Assembly: GCA_038042445.1 (NCBI GenBank)
Contig: JBBTED010000021.1
Coordinates: 68,085-132,084, forward strand
Reading direction: 5' to 3'
DNA: 64,000 nt
Origin: Candidatus Firestoneibacteriota bacterium
Lineage (GTDB): Bacteria; Oederibacteriota; D2-FULL-39-29; JBBTED01
The notes under the pieces were generated by a model. The model worked only from the letters and a program-made list of their open reading frames with translations. It had not been told where the DNA came from and did no database searches. The translations under genes were made by a program, and so were the position numbers. The number at the start of each line of letters is the position of its first letter. The stretch's first letter is position 1. Positions 3,763 through 47,809 of the stretch are shown here, in pieces.

Positions 3763-3913
3763 TTAGATTTCTCAAATTTATTCACACCTTCTATTTGCCT
3801 AAAGGACATTTTTAATTTGGCAGACAGTGTCTGCGAAATCTCTTTAGAAGATAAAGCTTTGCTCCCCTGTGTTTTTATAATAACAATTCTCCTCATTTAA
3901 TCCCCTACTAAAC

Positions 3914-5657: not shown

Positions 5658-5683
5658 AAAATTTCTCCTTTTTTAAAGTTAAA

Positions 5684-9344: not shown

Positions 9345-9354
9345 ATTTTAGTAG

Positions 9355-11688: not shown

Positions 11689-11699
11689 TTTAAACCTTT

Positions 11700-30028: not shown

Positions 30029-30032
30029 TTAT

Positions 30033-30854: not shown

Positions 30855-30933
30855 AGCTTTCTCCTATTCAAATCCCCCTATTTCCCCCTTTTTCAAAGGG
30901 GGACTAAAGAGGATCCTTAAATTATATAATTTA

Positions 30934-32040
30934 TTAATAGTTTATCTGTACCATCGCGTTAAACTTATTGTTATTTAAAATATTGTCATCCTTCACAAGA
31001 TAATCCACCAAAAATCTCACAGATTTGTCTGCATAAATATTTACTCCTACAGTATAATAGGATAAATATTTACCATCCCAAATATTTTCATCCCATCTTT
31101 CAAGTCTCACTACAGGAGCAATTAACGACAAATCAGAAGATAGCAATCCAAATGGCTTACCTTCCAGAGTAATTATTGCATCCATAACATCAGAAACTCC
31201 AGTTGAGTTTTTGCCTGCTATATACTCAAGAGTAAAAAACACCATATCTGTCTCATATTTCCCTGACACTCCGTAATGGGTCTCATATTTGCTTCCTGTT
31301 GCTATATAACGATTATAATCAGAAACACTAAATTCCAAATCATTCATAGGTTTTGTAATAAGATACGCGGAGAAATCCTTCATACCATCTGTTTCTGACG
31401 CATAAGTAGTACCATTTATTACCGCAATTCTCCACGAAAGAAGATTTTTGAGACTCTCTCCAGGAAGATTGCCATATAACTGAACGCCATAATCATATTT
31501 TGATGTAATCACCTTAGACATAGATTGCGGTGTATCAAAAACTTTTGATTTTGATGCAGGATAATTGTTCTCAAAACTAAACGGAATTATATATTGCCCT
31601 ATCTTCACCTTTAGCAAGTTTTTATCAGCAACAAAATCTGCCCATAACTCCTTAAATGTAACTGTAGACAAAGATATTGCTGATGATGAAAATTCAGGTT
31701 GTATTTTAAATTCTGTCCATTCATTTAATTTCCAGCTAAATCCCACTCTCGCTGTTTTTATTGCAAACGGTTCCTTTCCTCCAAGAGTAGGATCACTTGT
31801 ATATGAAAATTGAGAATACCCTGAAATTTTATAAACTGGGGATGATTTTTTTATTGCTTCATCAGTTTTATTCTTTTCTGCCTGAACCAAAAGTTCATTT
31901 GCAGTCTTAATATCTTTGCCCTCCAATTCAGTAAGCTGACCTTTTTCAACAAGTTTATCTACAAGAATGTCACATTGTCCTGCAAAAAGATTTGTACTAC
32001 AAATTACTATTACCGCTACTAAAACCATAAACTCCTTCAT
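30934..32040 (-). CDS. Putative outer-membrane beta-barrel porin
   Basis: Signal peptide MKEFMVLVAVIVICSTNLFA, alternating amphipathic beta-strand pattern, C-terminal ...MVQINY aromatic terminus. Confidence 0.45.
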   Translation of the reverse strand: MKEFMVLVAVIVICSTNLFAGQCDILVDKLVEKGQLTELEGKDIKTANELLVQAEKNKTDEAIKKSSPVYKISGYSQFSYTSDPTLGGKEPFAIKTARVGFSWKLNEWTEFKIQPEFSSSAISLSTVTFKELWADFVADKNLLKVKIGQYIIPFSFENNYPASKSKVFDTPQSMSKVITSKYDYGVQLYGNLPGESLKNLLSWRIAVINGTTYASETDGMKDFSAYLITKPMNDLEFSVSDYNRYIATGSKYETHYGVSGKYETDMVFFTLEYIAGKNSTGVSDVMDAIITLEGKPFGLLSSDLSLIAPVVRLERWDENIWDGKYLSYYTVGVNIYADKSVRFLVDYLVKDDNILNNNKFNAMVQINY

Positions 32041-32139
32041 ATCTTACTCCTCCCACTTTTATTTTTGCGATACTATCAAAAATGCTTTTGACAGTTTTTT
32101 ATGAATATGTATTACATCCTACATTTTTCAGTTGTAGTG

Positions 32140-32193
32140 ATAGTCGCAAGCTTTAGCTTGCGGTTTTTCCCGCAGGCTAAAGCCTGCGACTAC
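32140..32193. repeat. MITE-like palindromic element (family D), copy 1
   Basis: TAGTCGCAAGCTTTAGCTTGCGG-N8-CCGCAGGCTAAAGCCTGCGACTAC. The two 24-nt arms are inverted copies, each a local hairpin. A second copy is at 39751-39820 and a half copy at 44247-44269. Confidence 0.7.
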
Positions 32194-32217
32194 CTTTTAT
32201 TTGCTTCTCCTTTCTAT

Positions 32218-32544
32218 CTACAAAATTTCTTTATAGCGTTTATTCACAGATGCTGTTATTTTAGTCTCAATCTTTTCAAATTTTTTCAACAAACCTTTTG
32301 CATAATCAGTCAATACTGCCCCTCCACCTCCTTTCCCTCCTCTGTTTTTAACAAGCAAAATTTTCCCCAATCTTTTTTCTGCTGAATGAATATAACTCCA
32401 TGTATGGCGATACGACATATTTAACTTCTCTGCAGCTTTTTTTATAGAATTTGTTTCAGAAACAGCTTTCAAGATAGCATACCTACCCGGACCAAAAACA
32501 AGATTACCGTCTTTTTCAAACCAGACTTTTACTTTTATTTGCAT
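32218..32544 (-). CDS. ModE-like N-terminal domain (winged HTH) molybdate/tungstate-responsive regulator
   Basis: 108 aa with GRYAILKAVSETNSIKKAAEKLNMSYRHTWSYI...NRGGKGGGGAVLT, which matches the ModE N-terminal domain signature (GGKGGGGA). Confidence 0.75.
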   Translation of the reverse strand: MQIKVKVWFEKDGNLVFGPGRYAILKAVSETNSIKKAAEKLNMSYRHTWSYIHSAEKRLGKILLVKNRGGKGGGGAVLTDYAKGLLKKFEKIETKITASVNKRYKEIL

Positions 32545-35191: not shown

Positions 35192-35998
35192 TTAATTATG
35201 AAAATTTGTAGGAAATAATAAATTTATTCCGATAAAAGAAAATATCATAAATACAAAAGATGCTATTATTATCCATGCTATTTTTTTCCCTCTAAAAAAA
35301 CCAAATATATGCAAATGCAATAATATTGCATACGTAAACCATGTTATAACTGAAAAAATTTCTTTAAAACTTCCAGACCAATAAACCCCTTCCAAGTTCC
35401 CAAGCCAAAATGCACCAACTATCATTCCTCCAGTTAAAAATAAAAATCCGATTTTAATAGACTGATAACCTAAATTATCCACAATCTGAAGTGCTGGAAC
35501 AGTTTTTGAAGAAAGTATGTCTGATGCATGCTTCTTGATTTTTCTTTCCTGCCATAGATATAAAATTGCACAAACAAATCCTGCTGTAAAGCCTGCGTAT
35601 CCCAAAAAAGTTAAGGTTGTGTGTACCAACAACCACAAATTTGAGAAATAAATCTCTTGTGGCTGGACTTCTTTTAAAAATATCTTAACCACAAGTAAAA
35701 TCATCGCTATTGGCAACAAAATAAAATTCAATGTTTTTACTTTATATTTCAGAGTTATAACTCCAGTTAAAAACACAAGCATCCACGCATAAAATGGCAA
35801 TGCATTAACTATAGAATTTACTGAAAAACATCCTTCTTTGGAATACTTTAGGACAAAATAGGAAGTATGCAAAATAAATGCAATCCATAGCGTGAATTGT
35901 CCATAGAAATTCAACTCACGTTTATTTATAATTGATTTTATATAACTTGCAAAACTTGCAAGGTAAAACAGCAAACTTATTAAAATAATATTTTCCAT
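35192..35998 (-). CDS. HemX/CcsA-family cytochrome c assembly membrane protein
   Basis: 268-aa polytopic membrane protein directly downstream of hemA, as B. subtilis hemX is. Trp-rich segment GVYWSGSFKEI resembles the CcsA WWD region. Confidence 0.55.
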   Translation of the reverse strand: MENIILISLLFYLASFASYIKSIINKRELNFYGQFTLWIAFILHTSYFVLKYSKEGCFSVNSIVNALPFYAWMLVFLTGVITLKYKVKTLNFILLPIAMILLVVKIFLKEVQPQEIYFSNLWLLVHTTLTFLGYAGFTAGFVCAILYLWQERKIKKHASDILSSKTVPALQIVDNLGYQSIKIGFLFLTGGMIVGAFWLGNLEGVYWSGSFKEIFSVITWFTYAILLHLHIFGFFRGKKIAWIIIASFVFMIFSFIGINLLFPTNFHN

Positions 35999-36081
35999 AA
36001 AGATTTTTAAAACCCAAGAATAGAGCAGACAAGTCTGCCCCTACGGGTCCAATTTGAGTATTATAAAATACATTGAACTTT

Positions 36082-36190
36082 ATGTAAAGAATAAAAAAAC
36101 CACACCTATATAAGTGTGGTTTTTTTAAAACTCCAAACTAACGTGTAATTATCTGCGGATGTGCGGAGAGGTATATTAAACACACCGCAG
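36082..36190 (-). terminator. Bidirectional rho-independent terminator (36100-36127) plus about 65 nt conserved 3-prime UTR module, copy 1
   Basis: AAAAAAACCACACCTATATAAGTGTGGTTTTTTT hairpin flanked by A- and T-runs. The flanking ATGTAAAGAATAAAAAAACC and the AAACTA..CGT..GCGGAGAGGT..AAAC.CACC block recur at 42901-43010. Confidence 0.6.
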
Positions 36191-36233
36191 AAGTATTAAA
36201 ATTTCATCACTATACCGACATAAACACTAATAT

Positions 36234-38519
36234 TTACCAGTTATATTTTAAACCGATGTAGCCAACATGTGCCGTAAAATCCCTAAGGCTGTCGCCCAAA
36301 AAAATTGCGTTGGGACTAGAAACACCGGCTGCTGTTAAACCTGCGACAACAGGGACATTCTCAACGGCAAAATCCTCAACATCAAAAATAGTCAGAATGT
36401 AACCTCCCACCAAAACCAATCCTTCACCAATCGTATATTCCGGACGAATAGCTAATTCCTGGAGTGCGCTCTTGGTATCTGCTGGATCAGTTTCAACCAC
36501 AGTAGTTGTTCCTGGAATATCGCTGACTGTTATTTTTCCCTTGCCTATGGAATAATTGTATCCCACCATAAGACCTAATTTGGACAAAGGAGAAAAATTC
36601 ATATCAACACCGATAGTATGAAAAATATCATTATTTGTAGCTGTCCAATCATTTGCTGCATCTTGAGTAAGCACTGCGCCTGAGACATTAGACCGTTCTG
36701 TTGACTTAACATTTTGGATGTCATAAAGTAAAGAAATATCGAAAGTTTCATCTAACATCCAATCTGCACTTACTGTTCCACCCTGAGCACTGGATTCCAG
36801 AATACCGTACATATAATTGGTATTAGTAGCAATACCACCAGTTAAATCACCTATACCTGGTTTATATTTATCATCACGGTTAAATGCAGCAAGAGAGAGT
36901 CCAATACCGCCAAGGTCTGTCCATTGAACAGTACCCTTAACTTCGTTTCGGTCCCTGTCTGCCACATCCACCCGACGCAATCCAGGAAGCTCAATCAAAT
37001 CGCCTGCAGAGTTTTTATAGTCACTAATCTCAAAATCATCCATTCGCCTTAATCCCAAAATATAACCAGCTCGGACAGAAAACGAGGAAACAGGTCTATA
37101 GACCAGAGTTCCACGCAAAACACTTTCCTTTGTCTTTTCCACCTCACGTTTTGTTCTTTCCATAATCTCAAGACCACCACCAGCCGAAGCAGTCACATTG
37201 GAAAATACATCCATATCAATATCCACATCCAGATTTTGTCTATGAGGACTATAAACCTTGCTAGTATAAATGCTTGAACTCCAGTTCTGGTCAGCGGTTG
37301 CTTTTCCAGGAAAAACGATTTCCACGGTCTTGTTGCTGACTACTTCGGAACGATAACCAACCCTTGTACCCAAAGAATCCCACGGTCTACTGCTTAAAAT
37401 ATAGGATTGATTAAAAATTCCCCTATTACCATTTAGGCTTGAAACAGGCAATGCAGTCGGATCATAGGCATTAACCGTAGGATTGGCATAAGATCCCGGA
37501 ACAATGGCTGTATTAATAGTATAAGGAAGAAAAATTGCGTTTTGTGTCAAAAGAGCATAACTCAAAGTGGTATGAAAATAACTGTTTAATGGAAGATCGA
37601 GCATATTCACGTTAAATGTAGCCATATGCTGAGTATTGTCTGGATAAAGTGAAGTCCGTCCGGATTTTGAATTCGTACCACCACTATAACCAGAGGCAGA
37701 AGCTTGATCAGTCAATCTTTTGGGATTATCCCAAGTCATTTCTGTTACCTTATTGTGAAATAAAGAATATTCGTAAGCAAGATCCACATTCCAATTTTTT
37801 TGCGTCAAAGATGTGTCCAAAGAAAACTTGGTTGTTTCATAATCAACAGGTTCAGGCAACTCAATTGTGAAAAAGCCCAAAGTTCCTCCAATTGCCTTGG
37901 TTCCGGATTTATTCTCACGATTTGCGCTAATTTTGAAGCCAACATCACCCAAACTGGGAAGACCAATATCAAACCCATAGGAATCTCTAAGCAACTTGAG
38001 GGGTACCGCATTTGTATTTTTGGCTAAATCCAACAACAGATCATTGGTTGTGGGAGACGTGGTAGTTGTGGATGCCTGTAGTTTCCGCTGTATCTCATCG
38101 GATAGAGTAAAAACTCCAGCACTGATTTCCGAAAAAGGCGTCCTTGAAATAAGACTAAGAGAATGAGGTGTCTTGTCCCACCATGCGCTAAAGGACAACC
38201 CATTTTCTCGTTTATAAAGAAACCTGGCGAACTGATCATCTCTCATCACGTTTTTAGCAGTGAAAGAAATACCATAATCTGGGCTTTCAAAATCAAGCCT
38301 GTATTTGTTAATAGAAAGCCCTTTAGGAATAACCCGGTATTCTTCAAATTTAGCTTCTTGAACGTCAAGGTTTTTATAGTTAAAACCAAACTCAATCTCC
38401 TGCTTGACGTTTTCCGCGGCAAAAAGAGACCCCGTCATAATTACGAGTGCACACAAAAACAGTATTCGCATTTGTTTTCCCCTCCTCATTAGATTTATAA
38501 CTTCTTCTTCAATTTCCAT
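36234..38519 (-). CDS. MtrB/PioB-like large outer-membrane beta-barrel (porin-cytochrome conduit sheath)
   Basis: 761 aa. Signal peptide (MRILFLCALVIMTGSLFAA), beta-strand periodicity throughout, C-terminal ...GYIGLKYNW. Immediately downstream of a decaheme cytochrome in the same operon. Confidence 0.5.
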   Translation of the reverse strand: MEIEEEVINLMRRGKQMRILFLCALVIMTGSLFAAENVKQEIEFGFNYKNLDVQEAKFEEYRVIPKGLSINKYRLDFESPDYGISFTAKNVMRDDQFARFLYKRENGLSFSAWWDKTPHSLSLISRTPFSEISAGVFTLSDEIQRKLQASTTTTSPTTNDLLLDLAKNTNAVPLKLLRDSYGFDIGLPSLGDVGFKISANRENKSGTKAIGGTLGFFTIELPEPVDYETTKFSLDTSLTQKNWNVDLAYEYSLFHNKVTEMTWDNPKRLTDQASASGYSGGTNSKSGRTSLYPDNTQHMATFNVNMLDLPLNSYFHTTLSYALLTQNAIFLPYTINTAIVPGSYANPTVNAYDPTALPVSSLNGNRGIFNQSYILSSRPWDSLGTRVGYRSEVVSNKTVEIVFPGKATADQNWSSSIYTSKVYSPHRQNLDVDIDMDVFSNVTASAGGGLEIMERTKREVEKTKESVLRGTLVYRPVSSFSVRAGYILGLRRMDDFEISDYKNSAGDLIELPGLRRVDVADRDRNEVKGTVQWTDLGGIGLSLAAFNRDDKYKPGIGDLTGGIATNTNYMYGILESSAQGGTVSADWMLDETFDISLLYDIQNVKSTERSNVSGAVLTQDAANDWTATNNDIFHTIGVDMNFSPLSKLGLMVGYNYSIGKGKITVSDIPGTTTVVETDPADTKSALQELAIRPEYTIGEGLVLVGGYILTIFDVEDFAVENVPVVAGLTAAGVSSPNAIFLGDSLRDFTAHVGYIGLKYNW

Positions 38520-38547
38520 TATTTATATTAGTTTTTTAAAATCTCAA

Positions 38548-39492
38548 TTACCGCATAAAATAAACACCCGATGGATGATTTGATCCATGTATATTCACAT
38601 GACAATTTTGGCAAGAACGATTAATAATGCGAGAGTTTTGTTGTTTCACAGCCGAATCATCATAAAGTGTGCTCGGGTGCCTAGTCCCCACATGACACCG
38701 CTGACATAAAAGAAACGGACTTTTGGCTATGAGCATCTTGTCCTGCAAAGAACCATGAGCATCGTGACAAGTCAAACAATTTTCCTGAACAGGAGCATGC
38801 TCCCAAAGAAAAGGACCACGCTTTTCCGCATGACAGGTAAGACAAAGCTCCCTTGTAGAAGCAGTTTTTAAATTTTTGGCATATGGGGATCCATGAGGGT
38901 CGTGGCAAGTAACACAGGAAAGTTTTCCCTCCTTAGTCGGCATATGAGAAGCTTTAGACATATGAGCCTTTTTATCTTTATGACATTGAAAACAATTTTC
39001 AGTCGACGTTTTCTTTTTCAGCAATTTCCCCTGATCCGGTCCCGGCACAGAAGATTTATGAGAATTGTGACAAGAATTACAGGTTAAACCTTGACGCGAA
39101 TGTGTGCTCCCCTTCCAATTAGGATGGGTGTTGCCATGACATTGCAAACAAGAATTTGCTAATTCTTTTGGATTTGTCTTTGGTCCAAGAATAGTGGCAT
39201 AACCAGCCGCATTTTTATCTCCTGCAGCTTCCGCATGAAGCGAACCTGCACCATGACAAGTTTCACAATGTTCAGCTTGATTCAATTGCTTTTCTTTAAC
39301 AAACGTTTTCGCATGAAAACTTTTTTGAAATTCCTTTCCATGGTCATCATGACAAGTCATACATTTCTCAGAACCAATATGTCCAGCTTTTTCCTCTGAG
39401 TACGTAACTCGCACAAGAGTAAAAAAACATACAATGCTTACAATACAAAATATATTTACTATATATTTCATTTTACCCATATTATCCTCCAT
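38548..39492 (-). CDS. MtrA/PioA/DmsE-family periplasmic decaheme cytochrome c
   Basis: 314 aa with a signal peptide and ten CxxCH motifs: CMTCH, CETCH, CLQCH, CNSCH, CFQCH, CVTCH, CLTCH, CLTCH, CQRCH, CQNCH. Confidence 0.75.
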   Translation of the reverse strand: MEDNMGKMKYIVNIFCIVSIVCFFTLVRVTYSEEKAGHIGSEKCMTCHDDHGKEFQKSFHAKTFVKEKQLNQAEHCETCHGAGSLHAEAAGDKNAAGYATILGPKTNPKELANSCLQCHGNTHPNWKGSTHSRQGLTCNSCHNSHKSSVPGPDQGKLLKKKTSTENCFQCHKDKKAHMSKASHMPTKEGKLSCVTCHDPHGSPYAKNLKTASTRELCLTCHAEKRGPFLWEHAPVQENCLTCHDAHGSLQDKMLIAKSPFLLCQRCHVGTRHPSTLYDDSAVKQQNSRIINRSCQNCHVNIHGSNHPSGVYFMR

Positions 39493-39556
39493 TTCTCTAA
39501 TTCTATAAATTATTTCCTAATATATAAGTTTATAACTATACTTGAGTTATTATATA

Positions 39557-39573
39557 TGCAATTTTCGTGCCAA
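39557..39573 (-). promoter_or_regulatory. Sigma-54 (-24/-12) promoter upstream of the decaheme cytochrome operon
   Basis: The minus strand reads TTGGCACGAAAATTGCA, a perfect TGGCACG-N4-TTGCA. It lies about 65-80 nt upstream of the start codon at 39492. Confidence 0.7.
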
Positions 39574-39661
39574 CTTTTTAAAATATTTACGATTTTTTTG
39601 TGTAGGTTTTATCAATAGATTTACAAGGACAATTTATAATCTTAAAACTTGTATAGATTTA

Positions 39662-39697
39662 TGTGTATTTTTACACACAACTGTGTAAAAATACACA
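39662..39697. promoter_or_regulatory. Inverted-repeat candidate enhancer (UAS) for the sigma-54 promoter
   Basis: TGTGTATTTTTACACA-CAAC-TGTGTAAAAATACACA is a perfect 16-bp inverted repeat about 100 bp upstream of the -24 element. Confidence 0.5.
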
Positions 39698-39750
39698 GTT
39701 TAGATTAGAGATTGTGAGATAATTCTATTTTCTAGCTTTTTTCTGTACTG

Positions 39751-39820
39751 GTAGTCGCAAGCTTTAGCTTGCGGTATTATAGCTTTTACCATTTTTCCGC
39801 AGGCTAAAGCCTGCGACTAC
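39751..39820. repeat. MITE-like palindromic element (family D), copy 2
   Basis: GTAGTCGCAAGCTTTAGCTTGCGG-N22-CCGCAGGCTAAAGCCTGCGACTAC; same 24-nt inverted arms as at 32140. Confidence 0.7.
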
Positions 39821-39867: not shown

Positions 39868-41277
39868 TTATTCTTTTGATTCAAGAATTCCTAACTTTAT
39901 TGCTCTATATCTCAAAGAATCACGACTAATTCCAAGAATTTTTGCGGCCCGCACTTGATTCCCATTCGTTTTATGCAATGCCTGCAAAATAAGTTCTTTT
40001 TCAAATTCTTTGAGTGTAGATTTTTCTTTGGCTGTTTTGTTAAATTCTGGCATTTCTCCTTCATAACTTCTTAATTCTAAAGGCAAATGAGTAAGATTAA
40101 TATTCTCTACCGCTCCGATTATAATTGCACGTTCTATAATATTTTTTAATTCTCTTATATTCCCAGGCCAGTGATACCGCAAAAAAACATTTTTTACTTC
40201 CTTAGACAAAACAGGTGGATTTTTTTTCTTCAATTCATAGCTATATTGTTTCAAAAAATGCTCTGTGAGTAAAATAATATCTTCCATCCGTTCTCTAAGT
40301 GGAGATAATTTTAAAGTAAAAGCATTTAATCGATAATATAAATCATTACGGAATTCGCCTATTTTAATTGCCTTGGTTAAATCTTTATTTGTTGCTGCAA
40401 TAATTCCAACATTAACTTCTATATCTGAAACAGCACCCAGTGGTCTAAAAGATTTATTTTCAATTAATTGCAAAATTTTTGCCTGAAGACTTAGACCCAT
40501 ATCACCTATTTCATTTAAAAATAATGTTCCTTCATCTGCACTATGCACAAGACCTTTTTTTGCTTGTTTTGCATCTGTAAACGCGCCCTTTTCATAACCA
40601 AACAATTCACTTTCAAGCAAATTATCCGGTATAGCAGCACAATTTATCTCAACGAATGGCTTCTTTATCCTTTTACTTTCGTAATGTATTGCTTTTGCAA
40701 GAATATCCTTACCTGTGCCACTCTCCCCACAAATTAAAATTGGAGATGCACTGCTATTTACTAATTTTTTTGCAAATTCCACTACTTCCAGTATTGACTT
40801 GTTTTTCCCTACAATACTAGAAAAACTATATTGCCTTAATTGTTGATTCCTTAACGATTTTGCTTCCACATAAACACTTGCATTTTCAATAACTTTATCA
40901 ATAAGCAATCTTAACTCATCTAAATCAAATGGTTTATTAATATAATCATTCGCTCCTCTTTTCATAGCCTCTATAGCAGTAGAAATGTCTCCAAAAGCTG
41001 TAATCATTATCACAGGAATTTCTAAATCGGATTCTTTTATTTTTTTCAAAATTTCCAAACCATCAATTCCAGGGAGCTTAATATCACATAAAACCAAATG
41101 AGGATGAAAATTTATAAATTTTTCAAAACCATCTTCGCCAGTTTCTGCCACTACTATATCATAACCATATTTAAATAAATTTTCCTTCAAAGACCACCTT
41201 ATTAATTCCTCGTCATCAATTACTAAAATTTTCTTTTTAATCATAATTTTTTCCCTTATGGTTGATATTCTTTTCAC
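39868..41277 (-). CDS. Sigma-54-dependent response regulator (NtrC family: REC-AAA+-HTH)
   Basis: REC domain (ILVIDDEELIRWSL...D), sigma-54 interaction domain (GESGTGKD...GAFTDA...ESELFGYEKGAFT) and C-terminal Fis-type HTH. Confidence 0.9.
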   Translation of the reverse strand: MKRISTIREKIMIKKKILVIDDEELIRWSLKENLFKYGYDIVVAETGEDGFEKFINFHPHLVLCDIKLPGIDGLEILKKIKESDLEIPVIMITAFGDISTAIEAMKRGANDYINKPFDLDELRLLIDKVIENASVYVEAKSLRNQQLRQYSFSSIVGKNKSILEVVEFAKKLVNSSASPILICGESGTGKDILAKAIHYESKRIKKPFVEINCAAIPDNLLESELFGYEKGAFTDAKQAKKGLVHSADEGTLFLNEIGDMGLSLQAKILQLIENKSFRPLGAVSDIEVNVGIIAATNKDLTKAIKIGEFRNDLYYRLNAFTLKLSPLRERMEDIILLTEHFLKQYSYELKKKNPPVLSKEVKNVFLRYHWPGNIRELKNIIERAIIIGAVENINLTHLPLELRSYEGEMPEFNKTAKEKSTLKEFEKELILQALHKTNGNQVRAAKILGISRDSLRYRAIKLGILESKE

Positions 41278-41287
41278 CAGACCATAT

Positions 41288-42778
41288 TCAATTTTTATTC
41301 ACAGGAAGTTTTATAACAAAACAGGTTTTTTTCACTTCCTCACTTGTAAATTCAATTATTCCATTATGCATTTTAACAATATTCTGGCTGGTAAAAAGCC
41401 CTAAACCTGTACCACCAGGCTTTGTTGTAAAAAAAGGCTGAAAAATTTTGTCTACATATTTACTTGGTATTCCTTTTCCAGTATCACAAATTGAAATTAT
41501 CACAAAATCATCTAAAAGTGAAGTGTTTATAGCTAACACTCCACCTTTAGGCATTGCACTGATTGCATTCAAAAAAATATTTACAAAAACCTGAAGTATT
41601 AATTCTGCGTCTAAATTTAAATCAGGAATTTCCTTACTGTACTGTTTTTCTACTTTTATTTGATGATCAGTAATATGTTTATGGACAAAGAAAAAAGCTT
41701 TTTCAATAATCTCCTGAATGTTAACACTTTTTATTTCTAATGTTATTGGCTTAGAATAATTTAACAAATTTTCAACAGTTTTTGCTAATCTATTCACCTG
41801 AATATTTATTTTTTCATATATTTCTTTTTGTATCGGTATTTTTGCAGATTGCTCTAATGTCTGAAAAGCAGCTTTTATACCTGCCAATGGATTTTTAATC
41901 TCATGAGCTAAACTTGCGTAAAGTTTTCCTAAAGATGCAAGTCTATCTGCATGGGCAATCTGTTCCTGATGATATTTCTATATTGATTCTTTAGATTGTT
42001 TCAGATTATCCACCATTTTATTGAAATTTTCAGCTAAAACATCCAATTCATTATTTTCTTTAATATCCACATTTACATTCAAATCACCCTGACTTACTTT
42101 ATTAAATGCTAAAAGCAATTTTTGTATAGGACGATTCACTACCTTTTTCATAAAAAATACAAGTACAAGTGATATAACTAATAAAATAGCAAGAGTCATT
42201 ATAATATGCATTTTAGCATTATCCATTATATTATCCATAAGAGATTTCCATGAAATGGATATTTCCAAAAAACCTATTATACTTTCATTTGACTTATGAC
42301 AACCATAACATTTCTTTTTATTTACAATTTGCTGTTTAAATACATAAATAGGTTCTCCATTTTTATAAGTCAGTTCTGCGGATTTATTATTTTTTGATAC
42401 AGACTCAACTTTTAATATTCTAACACCAGACAAATGTTGTCCTTCATTTAAATTTTTTAGTACACTATCCAATTTTTTCTGTTTGCCAGATAACATAATA
42501 TCTTCAATACTTTTAAGGATAGTATCTGCTATAACTTTTGCATGTTCTGATTCAGCTTTCAACCATTCTTTTTTTTGAAATTTTATATCAAAATAACCGG
42601 CAATTAAACTTACAATAGAAAATACCAAAATAATAACAAAAACCAATTGGAAACTTAAATTACGATGAACTTTTCGCATATTTTTTATACACCACACAAA
42701 ATTCACAGGTTTTATGAGTTCCAAGCACTTCATCACACATTGTATTTTTAATTTCCCAGCATGGTAATTTATGGCCAA
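41288..42778 (-). pseudogene. Sensor histidine kinase with periplasmic CxxCH heme motif, split by an in-frame TAG (41978-41980) just upstream of the H-box
   Basis: The upstream part (41978-42778) has TM segments, periplasmic CYGCHK and HAMP (...NFNKMVDNLKQSKESI*). In the same frame after the TAG comes KYHQEQIAHADRLASLGKLYASLAHEIKNPL (DHp H-box), then the HATPase_c domain (41288-41887; the track ORF starts at TTG). Confidence 0.65.
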
Positions 42779-42872
42779 AGTAAGAAGGACAAGTTTTATA
42801 AACAGAACAATCTTTCATTTTCCAACAAGGTATTTTGTCTGTCCAAAAACTTTTGGTTTCATTCATAGGCAA
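42660..42872 (-). CDS. Small Cys-rich protein (9 Cys; duplicated PCW-x3/4-C motif)
   Basis: 70 aa MPMNETKSFWTDKIPCWKMKDCSVYKTCPSYFGHKLPCWEIKNTMCDEVLGTHKTCEFC. Immediately upstream of, and overlapping, the sensor kinase; a coding call is plausible but unverified. Confidence 0.4.
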   Translation of the reverse strand: MPMNETKSFWTDKIPCWKMKDCSVYKTCPSYFGHKLPCWEIKNTMCDEVLGTHKTCEFCVVYKKYAKSSS

Positions 42873-42900: not shown

Positions 42901-43010
42901 ATGTAAAGAATAAAAAAACCCATGCCTATAATAGACATGGGTTTTTTACAAACTACACGTATTTTGTCATACGGCACGCGGGAGGTGTAACAAACGCACC
43001 ATTATCATAG
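42901..43010 (-). terminator. Bidirectional terminator (42918-42947) plus conserved 3-prime UTR module, copy 2
   Basis: ATGTAAAGAATAAAAAAACCCATGCCTATAATAGACATGGGTTTTTT, then a block homologous to 36126-36190. Confidence 0.6.
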
Positions 43011-43046: not shown

Positions 43047-44201
43047 TTAGAACATATATTGAGCTTCTATAGAAAATTTGTTTGTGTTTTTGGCACTCGC
43101 CTGACTAAGTGTATATTCGCCTACGAATCTGCCATACATATATGGTCTCCAGACCAAACCCATTACAGGTCCCTGTGTTTCATCAACAGTTTTTTCTGTA
43201 TTAGAATCAAAATAGTCATACCTCACATAAGGAGTCACTACATCTGAAAGCAGTTTATACCCTACTTCAAGATAACCACCAAGACTATACTGTTTGTCAG
43301 CACCTGCATTTTTTGTATTTCTTCCTGACAATAAAAGTCCTGTTAATGTCCAGGTTGAAGTAAAATAATTGAACATAGGGCCAACTTGATAGAAATTGTC
43401 ATCAAAACCAGTCATTGGAGCTTGTCCTATGTATCCATACATTCCAACTATACTTCCATCACTATCTAATTCATAATCAGCAGTAACATATACGTCTTTA
43501 AAATTATTATTATCTACTACGTTAAAATTACTAGCACCTGTGCCATTAACTACACCCAAAGAAGCCATAACATTCCAACTACATTTATGGCTTAATTCTA
43601 TGCCATAATTTCTTTGGAATGGTTTATACGGATTGCTTCCAACAACACTTGTAAGAGCTAATGATCTGTCCTTCCCTAATCTTCCACCTGTTCCATGAAT
43701 ATATAGAAGCTGTGAAAGAATCTGACCGAATCTAACTGTTGTATAACTCTTTTCATCTCCTGTGGTATACTGAATAAATGCTTCTGCTAATTTGCTACGG
43801 GCAAAATCATTAAAATCACTTGTTCCAGAATTTTTGCCTGAATTTTCATGAAAATACATTTCTGCAAAATATGAAAATCCACTACCCAATGCACCTCCTG
43901 TATACAAAGAAAATGCATGCTGTTCAAAGCTGCTTATTTTTTTATCTTCAGCATTAAATCTGACTTTCCCAGTAAAACTTGCATAATCACTCAAATTCTT
44001 TCCTGCTTCTTCATTTGCCATCATATGGCCCATTCTTAAAAAATCCTGACCTGTTTTGTTAAGCTTATTTACATTCCAATGACACATAGTGCAATCAGCA
44101 CCATATTTTCTCGCCCATGCTGCAATTGCAAAAGAATCTTTTGCAACTACACCTAAAGCAAAAGTAATTATTGCAATTACTAACAACATTTTTGCTTTCA
44201 T
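43047..44201 (-). CDS. Cyc2-like fused monoheme cytochrome c / outer-membrane beta-barrel (candidate Fe(II) oxidase or EET porin-cytochrome)
   Basis: 384 aa. Signal peptide MKAKMLLVIAIITFALGVVA, then a single CxxCH (CTMCHW) about 15 aa after the predicted cleavage site. The remainder has beta-barrel-like alternating strands and ends ...IEAQYMF. Confidence 0.5.
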   Translation of the reverse strand: MKAKMLLVIAIITFALGVVAKDSFAIAAWARKYGADCTMCHWNVNKLNKTGQDFLRMGHMMANEEAGKNLSDYASFTGKVRFNAEDKKISSFEQHAFSLYTGGALGSGFSYFAEMYFHENSGKNSGTSDFNDFARSKLAEAFIQYTTGDEKSYTTVRFGQILSQLLYIHGTGGRLGKDRSLALTSVVGSNPYKPFQRNYGIELSHKCSWNVMASLGVVNGTGASNFNVVDNNNFKDVYVTADYELDSDGSIVGMYGYIGQAPMTGFDDNFYQVGPMFNYFTSTWTLTGLLLSGRNTKNAGADKQYSLGGYLEVGYKLLSDVVTPYVRYDYFDSNTEKTVDETQGPVMGLVWRPYMYGRFVGEYTLSQASAKNTNKFSIEAQYMF

Positions 44202-44246: not shown

Positions 44247-44269
44247 CGCAGGCTAAAGCCTGCGTCTAC
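44247..44269. repeat. Family D half element (single arm)
   Basis: CGCAGGCTAAAGCCTGCGTCTAC matches the right arm of the 32140 and 39751 elements. Confidence 0.55.
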
Positions 44270-44317: not shown

Positions 44318-44713
44318 TCAACATTTTTCTATTTTACAAATTTTTATTTTGTCAGAATTGATATTTTTTTTCAAACAATTTATAAGATTTTTATTAATTA
44401 TTTCTTTTATCTTAAAAATTTTCTCAGAAGTTAATGTTGCTCCTTTATCTTTCATTAATAAAAAACCGAGTAAAGACTCAGACATGTCTTTAACTAATTC
44501 GGGTATTATCTTTTTATGTTTTTCCGAAATACATTCCGCACTTAAATATTCATTAGTAGTATTTTCTATTGCTTCATCTATTAAAAATGATATTTCTCTC
44601 AGTCCACTTCCCTGATACTTAATATCTTTAAAAGATTTGTATATAGCATCTTTGAAATCACTACAAATTTTGTCCTTATCATTTAGGCATAATAACGCTT
44701 TATATTTTTTCAT
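44318..44713 (-). CDS. Hypothetical protein (probable start MKKYKALL; the track ORF extends to 44791 through 5-prime UTR hairpins)
   Basis: Open frame of 131-157 aa with no recognisable domain. The upstream portion contains two perfect hairpins (GCAGAGCAAAGCTCTGC; CAGCAAAGCTTTCGCTTTGCTG), so a shorter start is more plausible. Confidence 0.35.
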   Translation of the reverse strand: MKKYKALLCLNDKDKICSDFKDAIYKSFKDIKYQGSGLREISFLIDEAIENTTNEYLSAECISEKHKKIIPELVKDMSESLLGFLLMKDKGATLTSEKIFKIKEIINKNLINCLKKNINSDKIKICKIEKC

Positions 44714-44979
44714 ATATATTATATAGCTGCAGAGCAAAGCTCTGCTAAAAAACAGCAAAGCTTTCGCTTTGCTGCTACATAAACCATACAAAATCCATTA
44801 AATATTAGAATGGTTAATCTATTATACATTATTTATGCAAGAACTATGCCAATTTTTTAATGTATTATAAAATGTATTGAAATTACTGTAGTTATATTGA
44901 TAAATTTAATAGTTAATAGAAGAATATTACCATAGATAATTGTATTGTTTTAGGACAATATTTGAATAGTTGTATTATT

Positions 44980-46350
44980 TTAAGACAAATCTTTAGATAT
45001 TGAATATTGCTGGATTTTCCTATAAAGAGTATCTCTGGATATTCTTAATATTTCAGCAGCTTTTAATTTATTTCCATTTGTAGATTTAAGAACTGAAATT
45101 ATAGCAGATTTTTCTGATTCCTCAAGGGAACATACTTTTACAGTATCAGAATTATTAGTTTCTAATACTCGCATATGCGAAGGTAAATCCTGTTCAACAA
45201 AAATATTTTTATTCACTTTAATTGCGAATAAACCTTCTATTAAATTTTCCAATTCACGAACATTGCCTGGCCAGTTGTATTTTACTAAAACATCCAATGC
45301 TTCACGTTCAAAACCCTCTACTTTCTTTTTGTATTTATCATTAAATTTATCAATAAAATATTTCACAAGAAGTGGAATATCTTCTTTTCTTTCTCTAAGT
45401 AGAGGAATTGTGATAGTAATAGTGCTTAATCTATAGTACAGTTCCTTTCTTATGCCACTTTTATTTCCATCAGAAATTATATTATGCGATGATGCAGCAA
45501 GAATTCTTACATTTACAGCTATTTCTTTTATATCACCTACAGGCCTTATTTTTTTGTCCTGAAGGACTCTTAAAAGTTTTGCCTGACTTTCCTTTGGCAT
45601 TTCACTAATTTCATCAAGCAATATTGTCCCTCCTTCACTTGCTCTGAATATACCTATATAATCCGAATTCGCACCTGTAAAACTTCCTTTTTTATAACCA
45701 AAAAGTTCACTCTCAACAAGATTTGAAGGAATACCTCCACAATTTATCGGCATAAATGTATTATTTTTTCTATTACTTAAATTATGTATTGCTCTTGCAA
45801 CAAGTTCTTTTCCAACACCAGTTTCTCCAAGTATCAAAACAGGACAATCTACAGATGCCGATGCCCTTATTCTATCAAAAACATTTTTCATTAATTTACT
45901 TTCTCCAATAATATTTTCGATGCTATATTTCGAATTAAGCTGGCTCTGTAAATGAGCAACATCAGTCTCAAGTTTCATTATTTTAAATAAGCGATTAATA
46001 CAAATCATAATCTGATCTTTAGTAAAAGGTTTAATTATATAATCAGAAGCTCCCATTTTTATTGCTGTAACTGCATCCTGAATTGTTCCATAACCAGTCA
46101 TCATAATAACTTCAATAGCAGGACTATGTTCTTTGATTTTTTTCAAAAGCTCAAATCCATTCATTTGACCCATTCTAATATCGGTTATAATAATTTTAAC
46201 GTCCTGCTCAATCTTGATTTTCTCAATAGCTTCCTCACCAGAATATGCCTTAACAGTAGAAAATCCCTGTCTTAAAAAAAGTTTTGCGCAGGTCTCTACC
46301 ATACCCTTATCATCATCAACAATTAAAATTTTTATCATATCATGTATCAT
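44980..46350 (-). CDS. Sigma-54-dependent response regulator (NtrC family), paralog 2
   Basis: REC, AAA+ sigma-54 activator (GETGVGKE...ESELFGYKKGSFTGA) and HTH domains; 456 aa. Confidence 0.9.
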   Translation of the reverse strand: MIHDMIKILIVDDDKGMVETCAKLFLRQGFSTVKAYSGEEAIEKIKIEQDVKIIITDIRMGQMNGFELLKKIKEHSPAIEVIMMTGYGTIQDAVTAIKMGASDYIIKPFTKDQIMICINRLFKIMKLETDVAHLQSQLNSKYSIENIIGESKLMKNVFDRIRASASVDCPVLILGETGVGKELVARAIHNLSNRKNNTFMPINCGGIPSNLVESELFGYKKGSFTGANSDYIGIFRASEGGTILLDEISEMPKESQAKLLRVLQDKKIRPVGDIKEIAVNVRILAASSHNIISDGNKSGIRKELYYRLSTITITIPLLRERKEDIPLLVKYFIDKFNDKYKKKVEGFEREALDVLVKYNWPGNVRELENLIEGLFAIKVNKNIFVEQDLPSHMRVLETNNSDTVKVCSLEESEKSAIISVLKSTNGNKLKAAEILRISRDTLYRKIQQYSISKDLS

Positions 46351-46403
46351 GCTGAATTTATTTCAGCATCTCTTTTAGACCCTGAAACAAGTTCAGGGTG
46401 ACA
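46348..46403. repeat. Family A two-hairpin palindromic repeat, intergenic copy 2
   Basis: CATGCTGAATTTATTTCAGCATC ... GACCCTGAAACAAGTTCAGGGTGACA. Near-identical to 16938-17005. Confidence 0.75.
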
Positions 46404-46423
46404 ATTCAAAGCTTGTCCTGAAT

Positions 46424-47809
46424 TCACTTCAATATTGGAAAACTTATTGTAAAAGTTGTATATTTATTTACTTCACTTGCAACAGTAATTGTTCCTCTGA
46501 GTTCTTCTATTAGTTTCCTACATATCGCTAAACCAAGACCTGTTCCATTCTTTGCTTCTTTTGTAGTAAAAAATGGCTCAAATATTTCGTTGAGGTTTTC
46601 TTTAGATATACCAGAACCATCATCTGTAAAATCAACCTCTATAAAATTATTATCAATAACTTTTGTTTTCACACTAATAGTTCCACCCTTTTCAATAGCA
46701 TCAAAGGAATTAGAAAAAAGGTTTAAAAAAATCTGTTCAAGTTGATCACAAGATGCAAGCACTTTCACTTTATCAGTTTCAGCAACGTCTATTTTCAAAG
46801 AGACATCATTCTTTCTAAAAATGTGGCTAAGTATTTCTATTATATCAGTTAAAACTTTATTGAAGTTACATTCCTGCAATTTTTCTTTTGCTTTAGTAGA
46901 ACGAGAAAAACCCAACAAATGTTCAACTATTTCTTTGCACCGTTGTAATTGATGATTTATAAATTTTAATTCTCCAAGATAACTTTTGTTTTTTATATCT
47001 TCCATCAACATTTCTGCACGTAACATTGCAGAAGCTAATGGAGTTTTCATTTGATGTGCGATTCCAGCCGCAATTTGTCCAACCAATACCATTTTATCAA
47101 CCCTATTTATTTTTTCTTCCTGAAGCCTTACAATTTCTTCCTGTGAATTCTCCAAAGCATTTAACATTGAATTGAATTGTTTTGAAATAACTCCAAATTC
47201 ATCATTTCTGGATACAGATAAACGTTTTTTTGTAACACCCTTTTCTACCTGCTTCATCGCATCCAATAATACTTTTATAGGCGTATTTACTATAAAAAAT
47301 ATTGCTAAGCCAATCAAAAGTGAAGTGATTATTACAATAGCAAAAAAAGAGTATATATGTATTTTTAACTCTTTTTTTACACGTAATAAAGCAGGAGTAA
47401 TAGATTTAGAAATACGTATATATCCTAATACAGGTTTTGTATTTTTATGACATTTAAAACACTCTTTTTTGTTAAAAATTGGAACAAAATAAACAAAATT
47501 ATCCCTTAAATCTATATTTACACCCTTTGCTATTATCTTAACCTCTTGATTGCTATTCAAAATCGTAATTTCATTAAAACCAATATTTAATACGAGTTTT
47601 TTTATAAATTTTTCTATTTCACCAATTTTTTTATCCAACATTGAATTTTCAATCTGTTGATGAATTGTTTTACAAAAAAGATTTAGCCGACGTGTTTCAT
47701 CATCAATAACCCATTCATTTGTGTGAGATATCTCTACATATAAATATAACCCAAGCAATACAAACAGAATAAATGTTATTGCAATAATTAATTTAAAAGC
47801 TATTTTCAT
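46424..47809 (-). CDS. Sensor histidine kinase with periplasmic CxxCH heme-binding motif (intact paralog)
   Basis: TM, periplasmic domain with NKKECFKCHKNTKP, second TM, HAMP, H-box GIAHQMKTPL, HATPase_c (GTGLGLAICRKL); 461 aa. Confidence 0.85.
   Translation of the reverse strand: MKIAFKLIIAITFILFVLLGLYLYVEISHTNEWVIDDETRRLNLFCKTIHQQIENSMLDKKIGEIEKFIKKLVLNIGFNEITILNSNQEVKIIAKGVNIDLRDNFVYFVPIFNKKECFKCHKNTKPVLGYIRISKSITPALLRVKKELKIHIYSFFAIVIITSLLIGLAIFFIVNTPIKVLLDAMKQVEKGVTKKRLSVSRNDEFGVISKQFNSMLNALENSQEEIVRLQEEKINRVDKMVLVGQIAAGIAHQMKTPLASAMLRAEMLMEDIKNKSYLGELKFINHQLQRCKEIVEHLLGFSRSTKAKEKLQECNFNKVLTDIIEILSHIFRKNDVSLKIDVAETDKVKVLASCDQLEQIFLNLFSNSFDAIEKGGTISVKTKVIDNNFIEVDFTDDGSGISKENLNEIFEPFFTTKEAKNGTGLGLAICRKLIEELRGTITVASEVNKYTTFTISFPILK

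What the first reader, a model, noticed from the sequence alone, without database searches (positions are those of the whole stretch)
43047..44201. Cyc2-like fused cytochrome-porin: single CxxCH right after the signal peptide plus beta-barrel body
The architecture is a signal peptide, then a lone CTMCHW heme motif about 15 residues after the predicted cleavage site, then a roughly 340-aa beta-barrel ending in aromatic residues. The length is 384 aa. This matches the defining architecture of Cyc2 iron oxidases of neutrophilic and acidophilic Fe(II) oxidisers. Finding it beside an MtrAB-like module and redox-sensing two-component systems suggests the organism can exchange electrons with extracellular iron or other insoluble substrates.
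Basis: partly seen in the sequence, partly recalled or inferred. Interest (0 to 1): 0.65.

Follow-up and report, generated by a model that had tools for sequence, protein, structure and literature searches.

The report
Divergent Cyc2-like fused cytochrome-porin gene
This gene from an uncultured Firestonebacteria genome encodes an outer-membrane pore fused to a single-heme cytochrome; it is a real but divergent relative of the Cyc2 iron oxidases, and it suggests that this little-known phylum exchanges electrons with its surroundings.

Summary

A profile of its clade aligns end to end with proteins carrying the published Cyc2 motif (hhalign probability 100%, E 3e-63). It is therefore a true homolog in the Cyc2 superfamily.

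It is not a textbook Cyc2. The defining AxPxFAR[QK][TY] motif reads AIAAWARKY, the PxL proline is missing, and a clade-specific His59 appears. These traits mark a coherent clade found in Firestonebacteria, WOR-3, Eisenbacteria, Elusimicrobia and Holophagaceae MAGs. The published Cyc2 pipeline filters such sequences out by motif.

In two Elusimicrobia MAGs, clade members sit in same-strand clusters with periplasmic cytochromes c, a Rieske/cytochrome b complex, FeoAB or MtrAB. Here the gene lies behind a sigma-54 promoter. That promoter is served by an adjacent activator and a heme-c sensor kinase. A paralogous module sits upstream of the nearby MtrAB genes.

Iron oxidation is inferred, not shown. 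No reference Cyc2 sequence or FeGenie HMM could be obtained. I rate it a new variant of a known kind, of moderate interest.

The parts
43047..44201 (-). Gene for the 384-aa Cyc2-like fused monoheme cytochrome-porin. It is NCBI MEK6645553.1, annotated 'hypothetical protein', from a Candidatus Firestonebacteria MAG.
   Evidence: ORF; identity to the NCBI record; no Pfam or NCBIfam match; homology.
44127..44201 (-). Predicted Sec signal peptide, residues 1-25, with cleavage after SFA.
   Evidence: Read from the sequence; helix at residues 2-19 in the model; Ala25 is 96% conserved. No signal-peptide predictor was run.
43983..44126 (-). Small cytochrome region, residues 26-73. It holds the variant Cyc2 motif A25-IAAWARKY, CTMCH at 37-41 (window 44079-44093), NKL in place of PxL, and the clade-specific FLRMGH ending in His59.
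   Evidence: published motif definition.
43050..43982 (-). 16-strand OprP-like beta-barrel, residues 74-384. It has a long loop between strands 5 and 6 (residues 162-197), a clade-specific low-confidence loop at 121-135, and a C-terminal YMF.
44836..44851 (-). Sigma-54 type -24/-12 promoter, TGGCATAGTTCTTGCA, upstream of the small ORF and the target.
   Evidence: One of only two matches in 64 kb, against 0.21 expected by chance.
44940..44988 (-). Two direct repeats TTGTCyTAAAAyAATACAA (of the form TGT-N11-ACA) about 90-140 bp upstream of the sigma-54 promoter. They are candidate binding sites for the activator.
   Evidence: Unique to this site in the window, against 0.01 expected by chance; sequence read. 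Binding is inferred.
44318..44713 (-). Small ORF of 131 aa (from the ATG) between the promoter and the target. It has no signal peptide and no family match, and may be co-transcribed with the target.
   Evidence: not conserved next to homologs. Whether it is a real gene is uncertain.
42913..42947 (-). Intrinsic terminator (hairpin plus T-run) about 100 nt after the target's stop codon.
44980..46350 (-). NtrC-type sigma-54 activator (receiver, AAA+ and Fis HTH domains), called RR2 here. It lies directly upstream of the target's promoter.
46424..47809 (-). Sensor histidine kinase HK2. A periplasmic loop between two transmembrane helices carries one CxxCH (CFKCH at residue 117), followed by HAMP, HisKA and HATPase domains.
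36234..39572 (-). Neighbouring module: the second sigma-54 promoter (39557-39572), a DmsE/MtrA-family decaheme cytochrome (38548-39492) and an MtrB/PioB barrel (36234-38519). No MtrC-type outer cytochrome follows.
39868..42679 (-). Paralogous regulatory pair for the MtrAB module: RR1 (39868-41277) and heme-c sensor kinase HK1 (41288-42679). HK1 is interrupted by an in-frame TAG at 41978-41980.
   Evidence: RR1/RR2 38% identical, HK1/HK2 28% identical over full length.

Best explanation
The gene encodes an outer-membrane, single-heme c-type cytochrome fused to a 16-strand OprP-like porin. It belongs to the Cyc2 superfamily but to a separate clade. After Sec export and covalent heme attachment at C37/C40/H41, the roughly 48-residue cytochrome region sits at or in the periplasmic mouth of its own barrel. 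A small dissolved redox species, most probably Fe2+, enters the pore and gives an electron to the heme. The heme passes it to periplasmic c-type cytochromes and on to the respiratory chain. In this genome the gene is switched on from a sigma-54 promoter by the adjacent NtrC-type activator. A sensor kinase with a periplasmic heme-c domain controls that activator. A paralogous kinase/activator/sigma-54 unit sits directly upstream of the neighbouring MtrAB conduit and most likely controls it. What is shown: the ORF, the invariant heme motif, the barrel fold, the homology, the promoter and repeat sequences, and the gene neighbourhoods. What is inferred: heme attachment, the position of the cytochrome relative to the barrel, the substrate, the direction of electron flow, and the regulatory wiring.
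Against: The strict Cyc2 motif is not met (P to A and F to W; PxL becomes NKL). The clade also has a near-invariant extra His59, so the heme environment, and hence its potential and substrate, may differ from the characterised Cyc2 proteins. No characterised Cyc2 sequence or FeGenie HMM could be compared directly. The window has no terminal oxidase or reductase and no small periplasmic cytochrome c. Most of the 13 contexts show the gene alone beside regulators, not in a respiratory operon. The closest homolog lies among anaerobe oxidative-stress genes. Several conserved basic residues (K79, R81, R135, K137, R174, R179, R197, R358) could favour anions over Fe2+.
Confidence: 0.55

Rival explanations
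1. The architecture is the same, but the function is different. In this clade His59 is the sixth heme ligand, giving a bis-His, low-potential heme. The protein then moves electrons outward, reducing soluble extracellular acceptors such as chelated Fe(III) or humic and flavin shuttles, or it works reversibly at low potential in anaerobes.
For: His59 is 92% conserved inside the clade and 1% outside. The PxL proline is 93% conserved outside and absent inside. 87 of the 89 G-H sequences fall in one 95-tip clade. The clade occurs in Holophagaceae/Geothrix-like, Elusimicrobia, WOR-3 and Firestonebacteria MAGs, and sits next to anaerobe marker genes such as PFOR, rubrerythrin and desulfoferrodoxin. 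It is linked to MtrAB here and in L095.
Against: No structure with heme is available, so ligation by His59 is a guess based on its position 18 residues after H41. Clustering with Rieske/cytochrome b and with NosZ fits inward electron flow at least as well. Canonical Cyc2 has no conserved Met or His ligand in my alignment either, so its ligand cannot be read from sequence for comparison.
Confidence: 0.2
2. It is mainly a solute porin: an OprP-like anion channel or an Fe2+ uptake channel. The heme then gates, senses or conditions the substrate instead of feeding respiration.
For: The best fold match is the phosphate porin OprP. Some homologs have precomputed Porin_O_P hits. The clade has many conserved basic residues. 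Metal transporters lie nearby in some contexts: Nramp and MgtE in L084, FeoAB in L091.
Against: The target itself has no Porin_O_P match even at E<=10. The heme motif is invariant across thousands of clusters. Two Elusimicrobia MAGs place clade members in operon-like clusters with cytochromes c and a bc-type complex. The window already has a separate heme-less Porin_O_P-like gene beside a Mod-type ABC transporter, and it is unrelated in sequence.
Confidence: 0.12
3. It is a protective protein of the envelope. It would oxidise incoming Fe2+ or consume oxidants at the outer membrane to limit Fenton chemistry, without conserving energy.
For: The closest homolog (73% identical) follows rubredoxin, desulfoferrodoxin and rubrerythrin/ferritin genes. 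OsmC and Usp genes flank other members, and Rrf2 regulators are adjacent in two contexts.
Against: These neighbours are not conserved, and none is shown to be co-transcribed. Dedicated sigma-54/sensor-kinase control and links to MtrAB and bc-complex genes point to respiration-type electron transfer.
Confidence: 0.08
4. It is an ordinary porin whose CxxCH is fortuitous and does not bind heme.
For: Heme attachment was not measured.
Against: C37, C40 and H41 are invariant in every full-length family member examined, with a conserved flanking motif. A cytochrome c maturation gene is in the window.
Confidence: 0.02

Closest known systems
Cyc2 fused cytochrome-porins (A. ferrooxidans Cyc2, Mariprofundus Cyc2PV-1, Leptospirillum Cyt572; Clusters 1-3 of McAllister 2020 and Keffer 2021)
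   Same: A signal peptide, then a single CxxCH within about 12 residues of the mature N-terminus, then a 16-strand OprO/OprP-like barrel, with length above 365 aa. The heme flank is recognisably the same (A-x-x-x-aromatic-A-R-K-Y-x3-CxxCH-x5-L-N-x2-G-x2-F). Profile homology to canonical-motif proteins covers the full length.
   Different: Pro to Ala and Phe to Trp in the AxPxFAR[QK][TY] motif. The PxL proline is lost. A clade-specific G-His59 replaces G-Phe/Tyr. There is a clade-specific loop insertion at residues 121-135, and at 384 aa the protein is at the short end. The hosts are uncultured, largely anaerobic phyla not known to oxidise iron. The published pipeline removes sequences lacking PxFAR[QK][TY], so this clade is outside the published tree by construction.
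OprP/OprO phosphate-selective porins (Pfam Porin_O_P, PF07396)
   Different: Sequence identity is 13%, and there is no Pfam match even at E<=10. OprP has no heme domain.
MtrAB / MtoAB / PioAB porin-cytochrome complexes
   Same: Both are outer-membrane devices pairing a barrel with c-type heme to carry electrons across the membrane. One is encoded 3.5 kb away here and in the same cluster as a clade member in L095.
   Different: Those are two separate proteins, a roughly 26-strand barrel sheathing a decaheme wire that can reach solids. This is one polypeptide with 16 strands and one heme, which is predicted to need a dissolved substrate to enter the pore.
Dual Cyc2 + MtoAB arrangement of Sideroxydans lithotrophicus ES-1
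   Same: One organism carries both a monoheme fused cytochrome-porin and a decaheme porin-cytochrome pair. In that organism the two are reported as parallel iron-oxidation routes (titles and abstracts of PMC9731265 and PMC11429942, listed).
   Different: Here the host is an uncultured Firestonebacteria MAG with no demonstrated iron metabolism. Each module sits behind its own heme-sensor kinase, sigma-54 activator and promoter unit, a layout I did not find described in the papers searched.

Membership tests
Cyc2 (sensu Keffer et al. 2021 / FeGenie) | N-terminal signal peptide | tested here: met
   MKAK + hydrophobic residues 5-19 + KDSFA|I. Ala at -1 is 96% conserved. This was judged by inspection; no predictor was available.
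Cyc2 (sensu Keffer et al. 2021 / FeGenie) | Exactly one CxxCH heme-binding motif near the N-terminus | tested here: met
   CTMCH at residues 37-41 is the only CxxCH, and it is invariant in the family.
Cyc2 (sensu Keffer et al. 2021 / FeGenie) | Length of at least 365 aa | tested here: met
   384 aa; threshold quoted.
Cyc2 (sensu Keffer et al. 2021 / FeGenie) | AxPxFAR[Q/K][T/Y] (screen: PxFAR[Q/K][T/Y]) just upstream of CxxCH, described as unique to Cyc2 | tested here: not met
   The target reads A-I-A-A-W-A-R-K-Y, so Pro is replaced by Ala and Phe by Trp. Register and spacing to CxxCH (3 residues) are the same as in canonical-motif proteins. None of P0001-P0072 passes the strict pattern.
Cyc2 (sensu Keffer et al. 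2021 / FeGenie) | PxL motif 4 residues after CxxCH | tested here: not met
   The target has N45-K-L47. Leu is kept (95%), but the Pro is absent throughout the clade and 93% conserved outside it.
Cyc2 (sensu Keffer et al. 2021 / FeGenie) | 16-strand barrel structurally like OprO/OprP | tested here: met
Cyc2 (sensu Keffer et al. 2021 / FeGenie) | Sequence homology to recognised Cyc2 (blastp E<=1e-5 to a cluster query, or a FeGenie Cluster 1-3 HMM above its cut-off) | not testable with these tools
   No reference Cyc2 sequence or FeGenie HMM could be obtained. As a proxy, profile homology to proteins meeting all published sequence criteria is unambiguous (hhalign E 3.3e-63).
Cyc2 (sensu Keffer et al. 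2021 / FeGenie) | Fe(II)-oxidising activity and a suitable heme potential (about +208 mV for Cyc2PV-1) | not testable with these tools
   This needs biochemistry.
OprO/OprP phosphate porins (PF07396) | Match to the Porin_O_P profile | tested here: not met
   No Pfam family matched at E<=10. Only the fold is similar.
MtrB/PioB porin of porin-cytochrome complexes (PF11854) | Large (about 26-strand) barrel matching MtrB_PioB, partnered with a separate decaheme cytochrome | tested here: not met

The most novel reading that the evidence does not exclude
The Trp / Gly-His / no-PxL clade is a functionally distinct branch of fused cytochrome-porins used by anaerobic, mostly uncultured phyla. His59 supplies a second axial ligand and gives a low-potential heme. 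The protein then serves anaerobic electron exchange, either outward reduction of soluble acceptors or Fe(II) oxidation coupled to nitrogen-oxide respiration, rather than the microaerobic Fe(II) oxidation of classical Cyc2. In this genome, two paralogous heme-sensing kinase / sigma-54 units would choose separately between a conduit for dissolved substrates (this gene) and a conduit for solids (MtrAB).
Probability: 0.2. Interest if true: 0.7.

Novelty: new variant of a known kind. Interest (0 to 1): 0.45.

Why it matters
Cyc2 is the main genetic marker used to infer microbial iron oxidation from genomes and metagenomes. This result shows a sizeable sister clade: about 160 representative clusters at E<=1e-30, inside a superfamily of about 5,300 clusters. 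The clade shares the whole architecture, but the motif-based screen removes it, and neither Pfam nor NCBIfam names it. It lives in candidate phyla with no known iron metabolism. If the clade is active in iron or other extracellular redox chemistry, surveys based on the strict motif undercount such organisms. If its remodelled heme pocket changes the potential, it would be a natural experiment in how fused cytochrome-porins are tuned. The paired sensor, activator and promoter units also offer a testable model for how a cell regulates two different outer-membrane electron conduits.

Tried and rejected
Attempts to obtain a characterised Cyc2 reference or model all failed.
- Pfam and NCBIfam hold no Cyc2 model, and neither the target nor the bridge proteins give a hit.
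- A PDB sequence search found nothing useful.
- The afdb50 fold library was not installed.
- Supplements of the Cyc2 papers hold no sequences.
- A full-text search for the motif strings found nothing.
- tblastn against plasmids found nothing.
- The genome-collection scan returned only uncultured Acidobacteriota, Ignavibacteria, Bacteroidota and similar groups as its best 80 loci, with no model iron oxidiser.
- Cluster look-ups gave no useful names for canonical-motif proteins.
- The last large protein search, with a 40-residue cytochrome-region profile, drew only 14 short fragments and was wasted.

Ideas considered and rejected:
- The heme-less Porin_O_P-like gene at 30934-32040 is not a paralog of the target's barrel (BLASTP E 0.22).
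- The small upstream ORF is not a conserved partner (no similarity near homologs).
- The sigma-54 promoter is not a conserved feature of the clade (only L084 has a near-match).
- The window holds no second Cyc2-like gene and no small periplasmic cytochrome c.
The mtrA-upstream palindromes are reported only from reading the sequence.

Full report
THE OBSERVATION
The ORF at 43047-44201 on the minus strand is real. It is 384 aa long, starts at ATG and has an AGGAGG ribosome-binding site 8 nt upstream. It begins with a typical export signal: MKAK, a hydrophobic stretch at residues 5-19, then KDSFA. The cleavage site was read from the sequence, because no signal-peptide predictor was available. The protein has exactly one CxxCH, CTMCH at residues 37-41, which starts 12 residues after the predicted cleavage site. 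It ends in ...QYMF. C37, C40 and H41 are invariant in 38 aligned homologs and in a wider alignment of 229 sequences, so the motif is not a chance occurrence. The protein is identical to NCBI MEK6645553.1, a 'hypothetical protein' from a Candidatus Firestonebacteria MAG. Neither Pfam nor NCBIfam matches it, even at E<=10.

FOLD

WHAT DEFINES CYC2, AND HOW THE TARGET COMPARES
Keffer et al. (PMC8406198) define Cyc2 by six features:
- a signal peptide;
- one CxxCH;
- an AxPxFAR[Q/K][T/Y] motif just upstream, which they call unique to Cyc2;
- a PxL motif just downstream;
- a 16-strand OprO/P-like barrel;
- a length of at least 365 aa.

Their tree-building pipeline explicitly removed sequences lacking PxFAR[Q/K][T/Y].

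The target reads A25-I-A-A-W-A-R-K-Y33, then GAD, then CTMCH, then WNV, then N-K-L. The register and spacing match canonical-motif proteins, but Pro is Ala, Phe is Trp, and the PxL proline is Asn. Four of the six features are met. The two strict motifs are not.

HOMOLOGY
- The first database search gave 74 relatives, all unnamed. They come from Eisenbacteria, Elusimicrobia, Holophagaceae/Geothrix, Bdellovibrio-like and WOR-3 MAGs.
- The two most distant hits (P0073 and P0074, E about 1e-9, 25% identity) carry a perfect AIPAFARKT...CxxCH...PQL signature, as do about 100 of their own relatives.
- A search with the family profile that scored every one of the 1.84 billion representative proteins found 5,310 clusters at E<=1e-3, 1,388 at E<=1e-10 and 162 at E<=1e-30. 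The top 150 are all monoheme proteins of about 360-450 aa, a mix of Trp-type and canonical Phe/PxL-type.
- Profile-profile comparison of the target's clade with 30 canonical-motif proteins gave probability 100%, E 3.3e-63, over 386 aligned columns. The match covers both cytochrome and barrel.
- An HMM of the clade alone recognises the canonical-motif gene in all 80 named genomes fetched from the genome collection, and the target alone recognises 79 of them. Those E-values refer to a small local set.
- Published identities between Cyc2 clusters are only 15-23%, so the target's distance from canonical-motif proteins is within the family's own range.

Homology to the Cyc2 superfamily is therefore secure. 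What could not be tested is a direct score against a characterised Cyc2 (A. ferrooxidans, PV-1 or Cyt572) or the FeGenie HMMs. Every route to those sequences failed, as listed under 'tried and rejected'.

A DISTINCT CLADE WITH A REMODELLED HEME POCKET
In a neighbour-joining tree of 229 full-length sequences, the target falls in a 95-tip clade. In that clade 80 tips have Trp at the motif's aromatic position, 87 have Gly-His at the position of His59, and none has PxL. Only 2 of the 89 Gly-His sequences lie outside it.

Column by column, His59 is 92% conserved inside the clade and 1% outside. The PxL proline is 93% conserved outside and absent inside. The clade also has its own loop insertion (residues 121-135, low pLDDT) and a set of conserved basic residues.

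These reciprocal changes next to the heme suggest a different heme environment. His59, 18 residues after the proximal His41 in a cytochrome region of only about 48 residues, is a candidate sixth ligand. This is an inference.

GENOMIC CONTEXT IN THE WINDOW
All the relevant genes are on the minus strand. In transcription order they are:
- heme-sensor kinase HK2 (46424-47809);
- sigma-54 activator RR2 (44980-46350);
- two unique direct repeats (44940-44988);
- a sigma-54 promoter (44836-44851);
- a 131-aa ORF of unknown function;
- a REP-like hairpin;
- the target gene;
- a terminator (42913-42947).

A second set follows:
- kinase HK1 (41288-42679, with an in-frame TAG);
- activator RR1 (39868-41277);
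- a pair of palindromes;
- the second sigma-54 promoter (39557-39572);
- decaheme MtrA/DmsE-family cytochrome;
- MtrB/PioB barrel;
- CcsB-like cytochrome assembly gene;
- HemA.

The evidence for this layout is as follows.
- The sigma-54 pattern matches only these two sites in 64 kb, against 0.21 expected by chance.
- The two kinases share one architecture, with a single CxxCH in the periplasmic loop. They are 28% identical to each other, and the two activators are 38% identical.
- The layout therefore consists of two paralogous sensor, activator and promoter units. One is in front of the monoheme fused conduit and one is in front of the decaheme conduit.
- The wiring is inferred from position and sequence only.
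- The rest of the window holds type I-C CRISPR-Cas, housekeeping genes and a Mod-type transporter. It has no oxidase, no reductase and no small cytochrome c that would indicate the direction of electron flow.

CONTEXT OF CLADE MEMBERS ELSEWHERE
I examined 13 contexts. Most members are single genes beside regulators: two-component systems, sigma-54 activators, Crp/Fnr or Rrf2. Three contexts are informative.
- In Elusimicrobia MAG L091 the same-strand order is tetraheme cytochrome c, clade member (46-nt gap), Rieske, cytochrome b, diheme cytochrome b-C/c, FeoB, FeoA/DtxR.
- In Elusimicrobia MAG L095 the order is Crp, decaheme MtrA, MtrB, monoheme cytochrome c, clade member, with gaps of 25-72 nt.
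- In Eisenbacteria MAG L096 the gene lies beside Crp/Fnr and a hemerythrin, cytochrome c, NosZ, NosD cluster.

These contexts tie the clade to periplasmic cytochromes, a bc-type complex, ferrous iron transport and anaerobic respiration. That parallels the Cyc2 to periplasmic cytochrome c to respiratory chain scheme proposed for iron oxidisers. MtrAB linkage recurs in a second phylum, but in only 2 of the 13 contexts. The closest homolog instead sits among rubredoxin, desulfoferrodoxin and rubrerythrin genes, so a protective role cannot be dismissed.

MOST LIKELY MECHANISM
The protein is an outer-membrane fused monoheme cytochrome-porin. A dissolved redox species, most probably Fe2+, enters the pore and reduces the heme. 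The heme passes the electron to periplasmic cytochromes. Expression is controlled by a heme-based sensor kinase through a sigma-54 activator. I put this at about 0.55.

The main rival (0.2) keeps the architecture but gives the clade a bis-His, low-potential heme and outward or low-potential electron transfer suited to anaerobes. Minor rivals are a solute porin with an accessory heme (0.12), a protective iron or oxidant-handling role (0.08), and a non-heme porin (0.02).

The Cyc2 authors themselves state that function is unverified for distant homologs and that other functions are possible.

VERDICT
The protein should not be filed as a Cyc2 sensu stricto, because two defining sequence motifs were tested and not met. 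It is best described as a member of a previously unnamed sister clade of the Cyc2 superfamily. No paper in the searchable library links Firestonebacteria to Cyc2. I rate it a new variant of a known kind and of moderate interest. Cyc2 homologs are already known to be widespread, so a specialist would not be greatly surprised. The coherent change in the heme pocket, the host phyla and the twin regulatory units are still worth following up.

Noticed in passing
window 39557-39572 and 44836-44851 (-), with 39868-42679 and 44980-47809: Two paralogous units lie 5 kb apart. Each has a sensor kinase with a periplasmic CxxCH, an NtrC-type activator and a sigma-54 promoter. One precedes mtrAB and the other precedes the Cyc2-like gene. 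These are the only two sigma-54 consensus matches in 64 kb.
   Followed up: partly
window 41978-41980 (-): Sensor kinase HK1 is interrupted by an in-frame TAG between its HAMP domain and the H-box (..QSKESI*KYHQEQIAHADRLASLG..). This could be a pseudogene, an assembly error or a split gene.
   Followed up: partly
window 32145-32188, 39756-39815, 44247-44264: A REP-like palindrome, CGCAGGCTTTAGCCTGCG, and its variant CGCAAGCTTTAGCTTGCG recur in three intergenic regions (0 expected by chance). One copy lies between the small ORF and the target's ribosome-binding site.
   Followed up: partly
window 39655-39700 (-): Two adjacent palindromes (cTGTGTAtttttACACAg and TGTGTGTAaaaaTACACA) lie about 100 bp upstream of the mtrA sigma-54 promoter. 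They are probably sites for RR1, and they differ from the repeats upstream of the target's promoter.
   Followed up: no
window 42660-42872 (-): A 70-aa cysteine-rich ORF with repeated C-W and C-x-x-C spacing (..IPCWKMKDCSVYKTCP..LPCWEIKNTMCDE..CEFC..) lies just upstream of HK1 and overlaps its start. It has no Pfam or NCBIfam match.
   Followed up: partly
window 35192-39492 (-): The MtrA/DmsE-family decaheme cytochrome and the MtrB/PioB barrel have no MtrC-type outer cytochrome, like MtoAB and PioAB. They are followed directly by a CcsB-like cytochrome c assembly gene and hemA. MtrB scores below the NCBIfam cut-off but well above the Pfam cut-off.
   Followed up: partly
window 2731-11766 (-): A type I-C CRISPR-Cas operon (Cas1, Cas7, Cas8c/Csd1, Cas3) has a YhcG/DUF1016 PDDEXK nuclease gene (7405-8619) lying inside the cas gene row.
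   Followed up: no
window 28272-32544 (-): A molybdate-type ABC transporter (periplasmic binding protein, permease, and ATPase with a TOBE domain) is preceded by its own heme-less Porin_O_P-like barrel (30934-32040) and a small HTH regulator. The barrel is unrelated in sequence to the target.
   Followed up: partly
window 11700-13070 (-): A single ORF combines a complete TatD DNase domain with a radical SAM domain, which is an unusual fusion.
   Followed up: no
L091 5265-12404 and L095 670-6419: Two Elusimicrobia MAGs hold compact same-strand clusters. L091 has tetraheme cytochrome c, clade member, Rieske, cytochrome b, diheme b-C/c, FeoB and FeoA. L095 has Crp, MtrA, MtrB, monoheme cytochrome c and clade member. 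Both are candidate complete iron-linked electron-transfer operons in a phylum not known for iron metabolism.
   Followed up: partly
The best 80 are nearly all uncultured Acidobacteriota, Ignavibacteria, Bacteroidota, Calditrichota, Gemmatimonadota and Nitrospirota. Canonical-motif Cyc2-type genes are therefore very common outside the recognised iron oxidisers.
   Followed up: no
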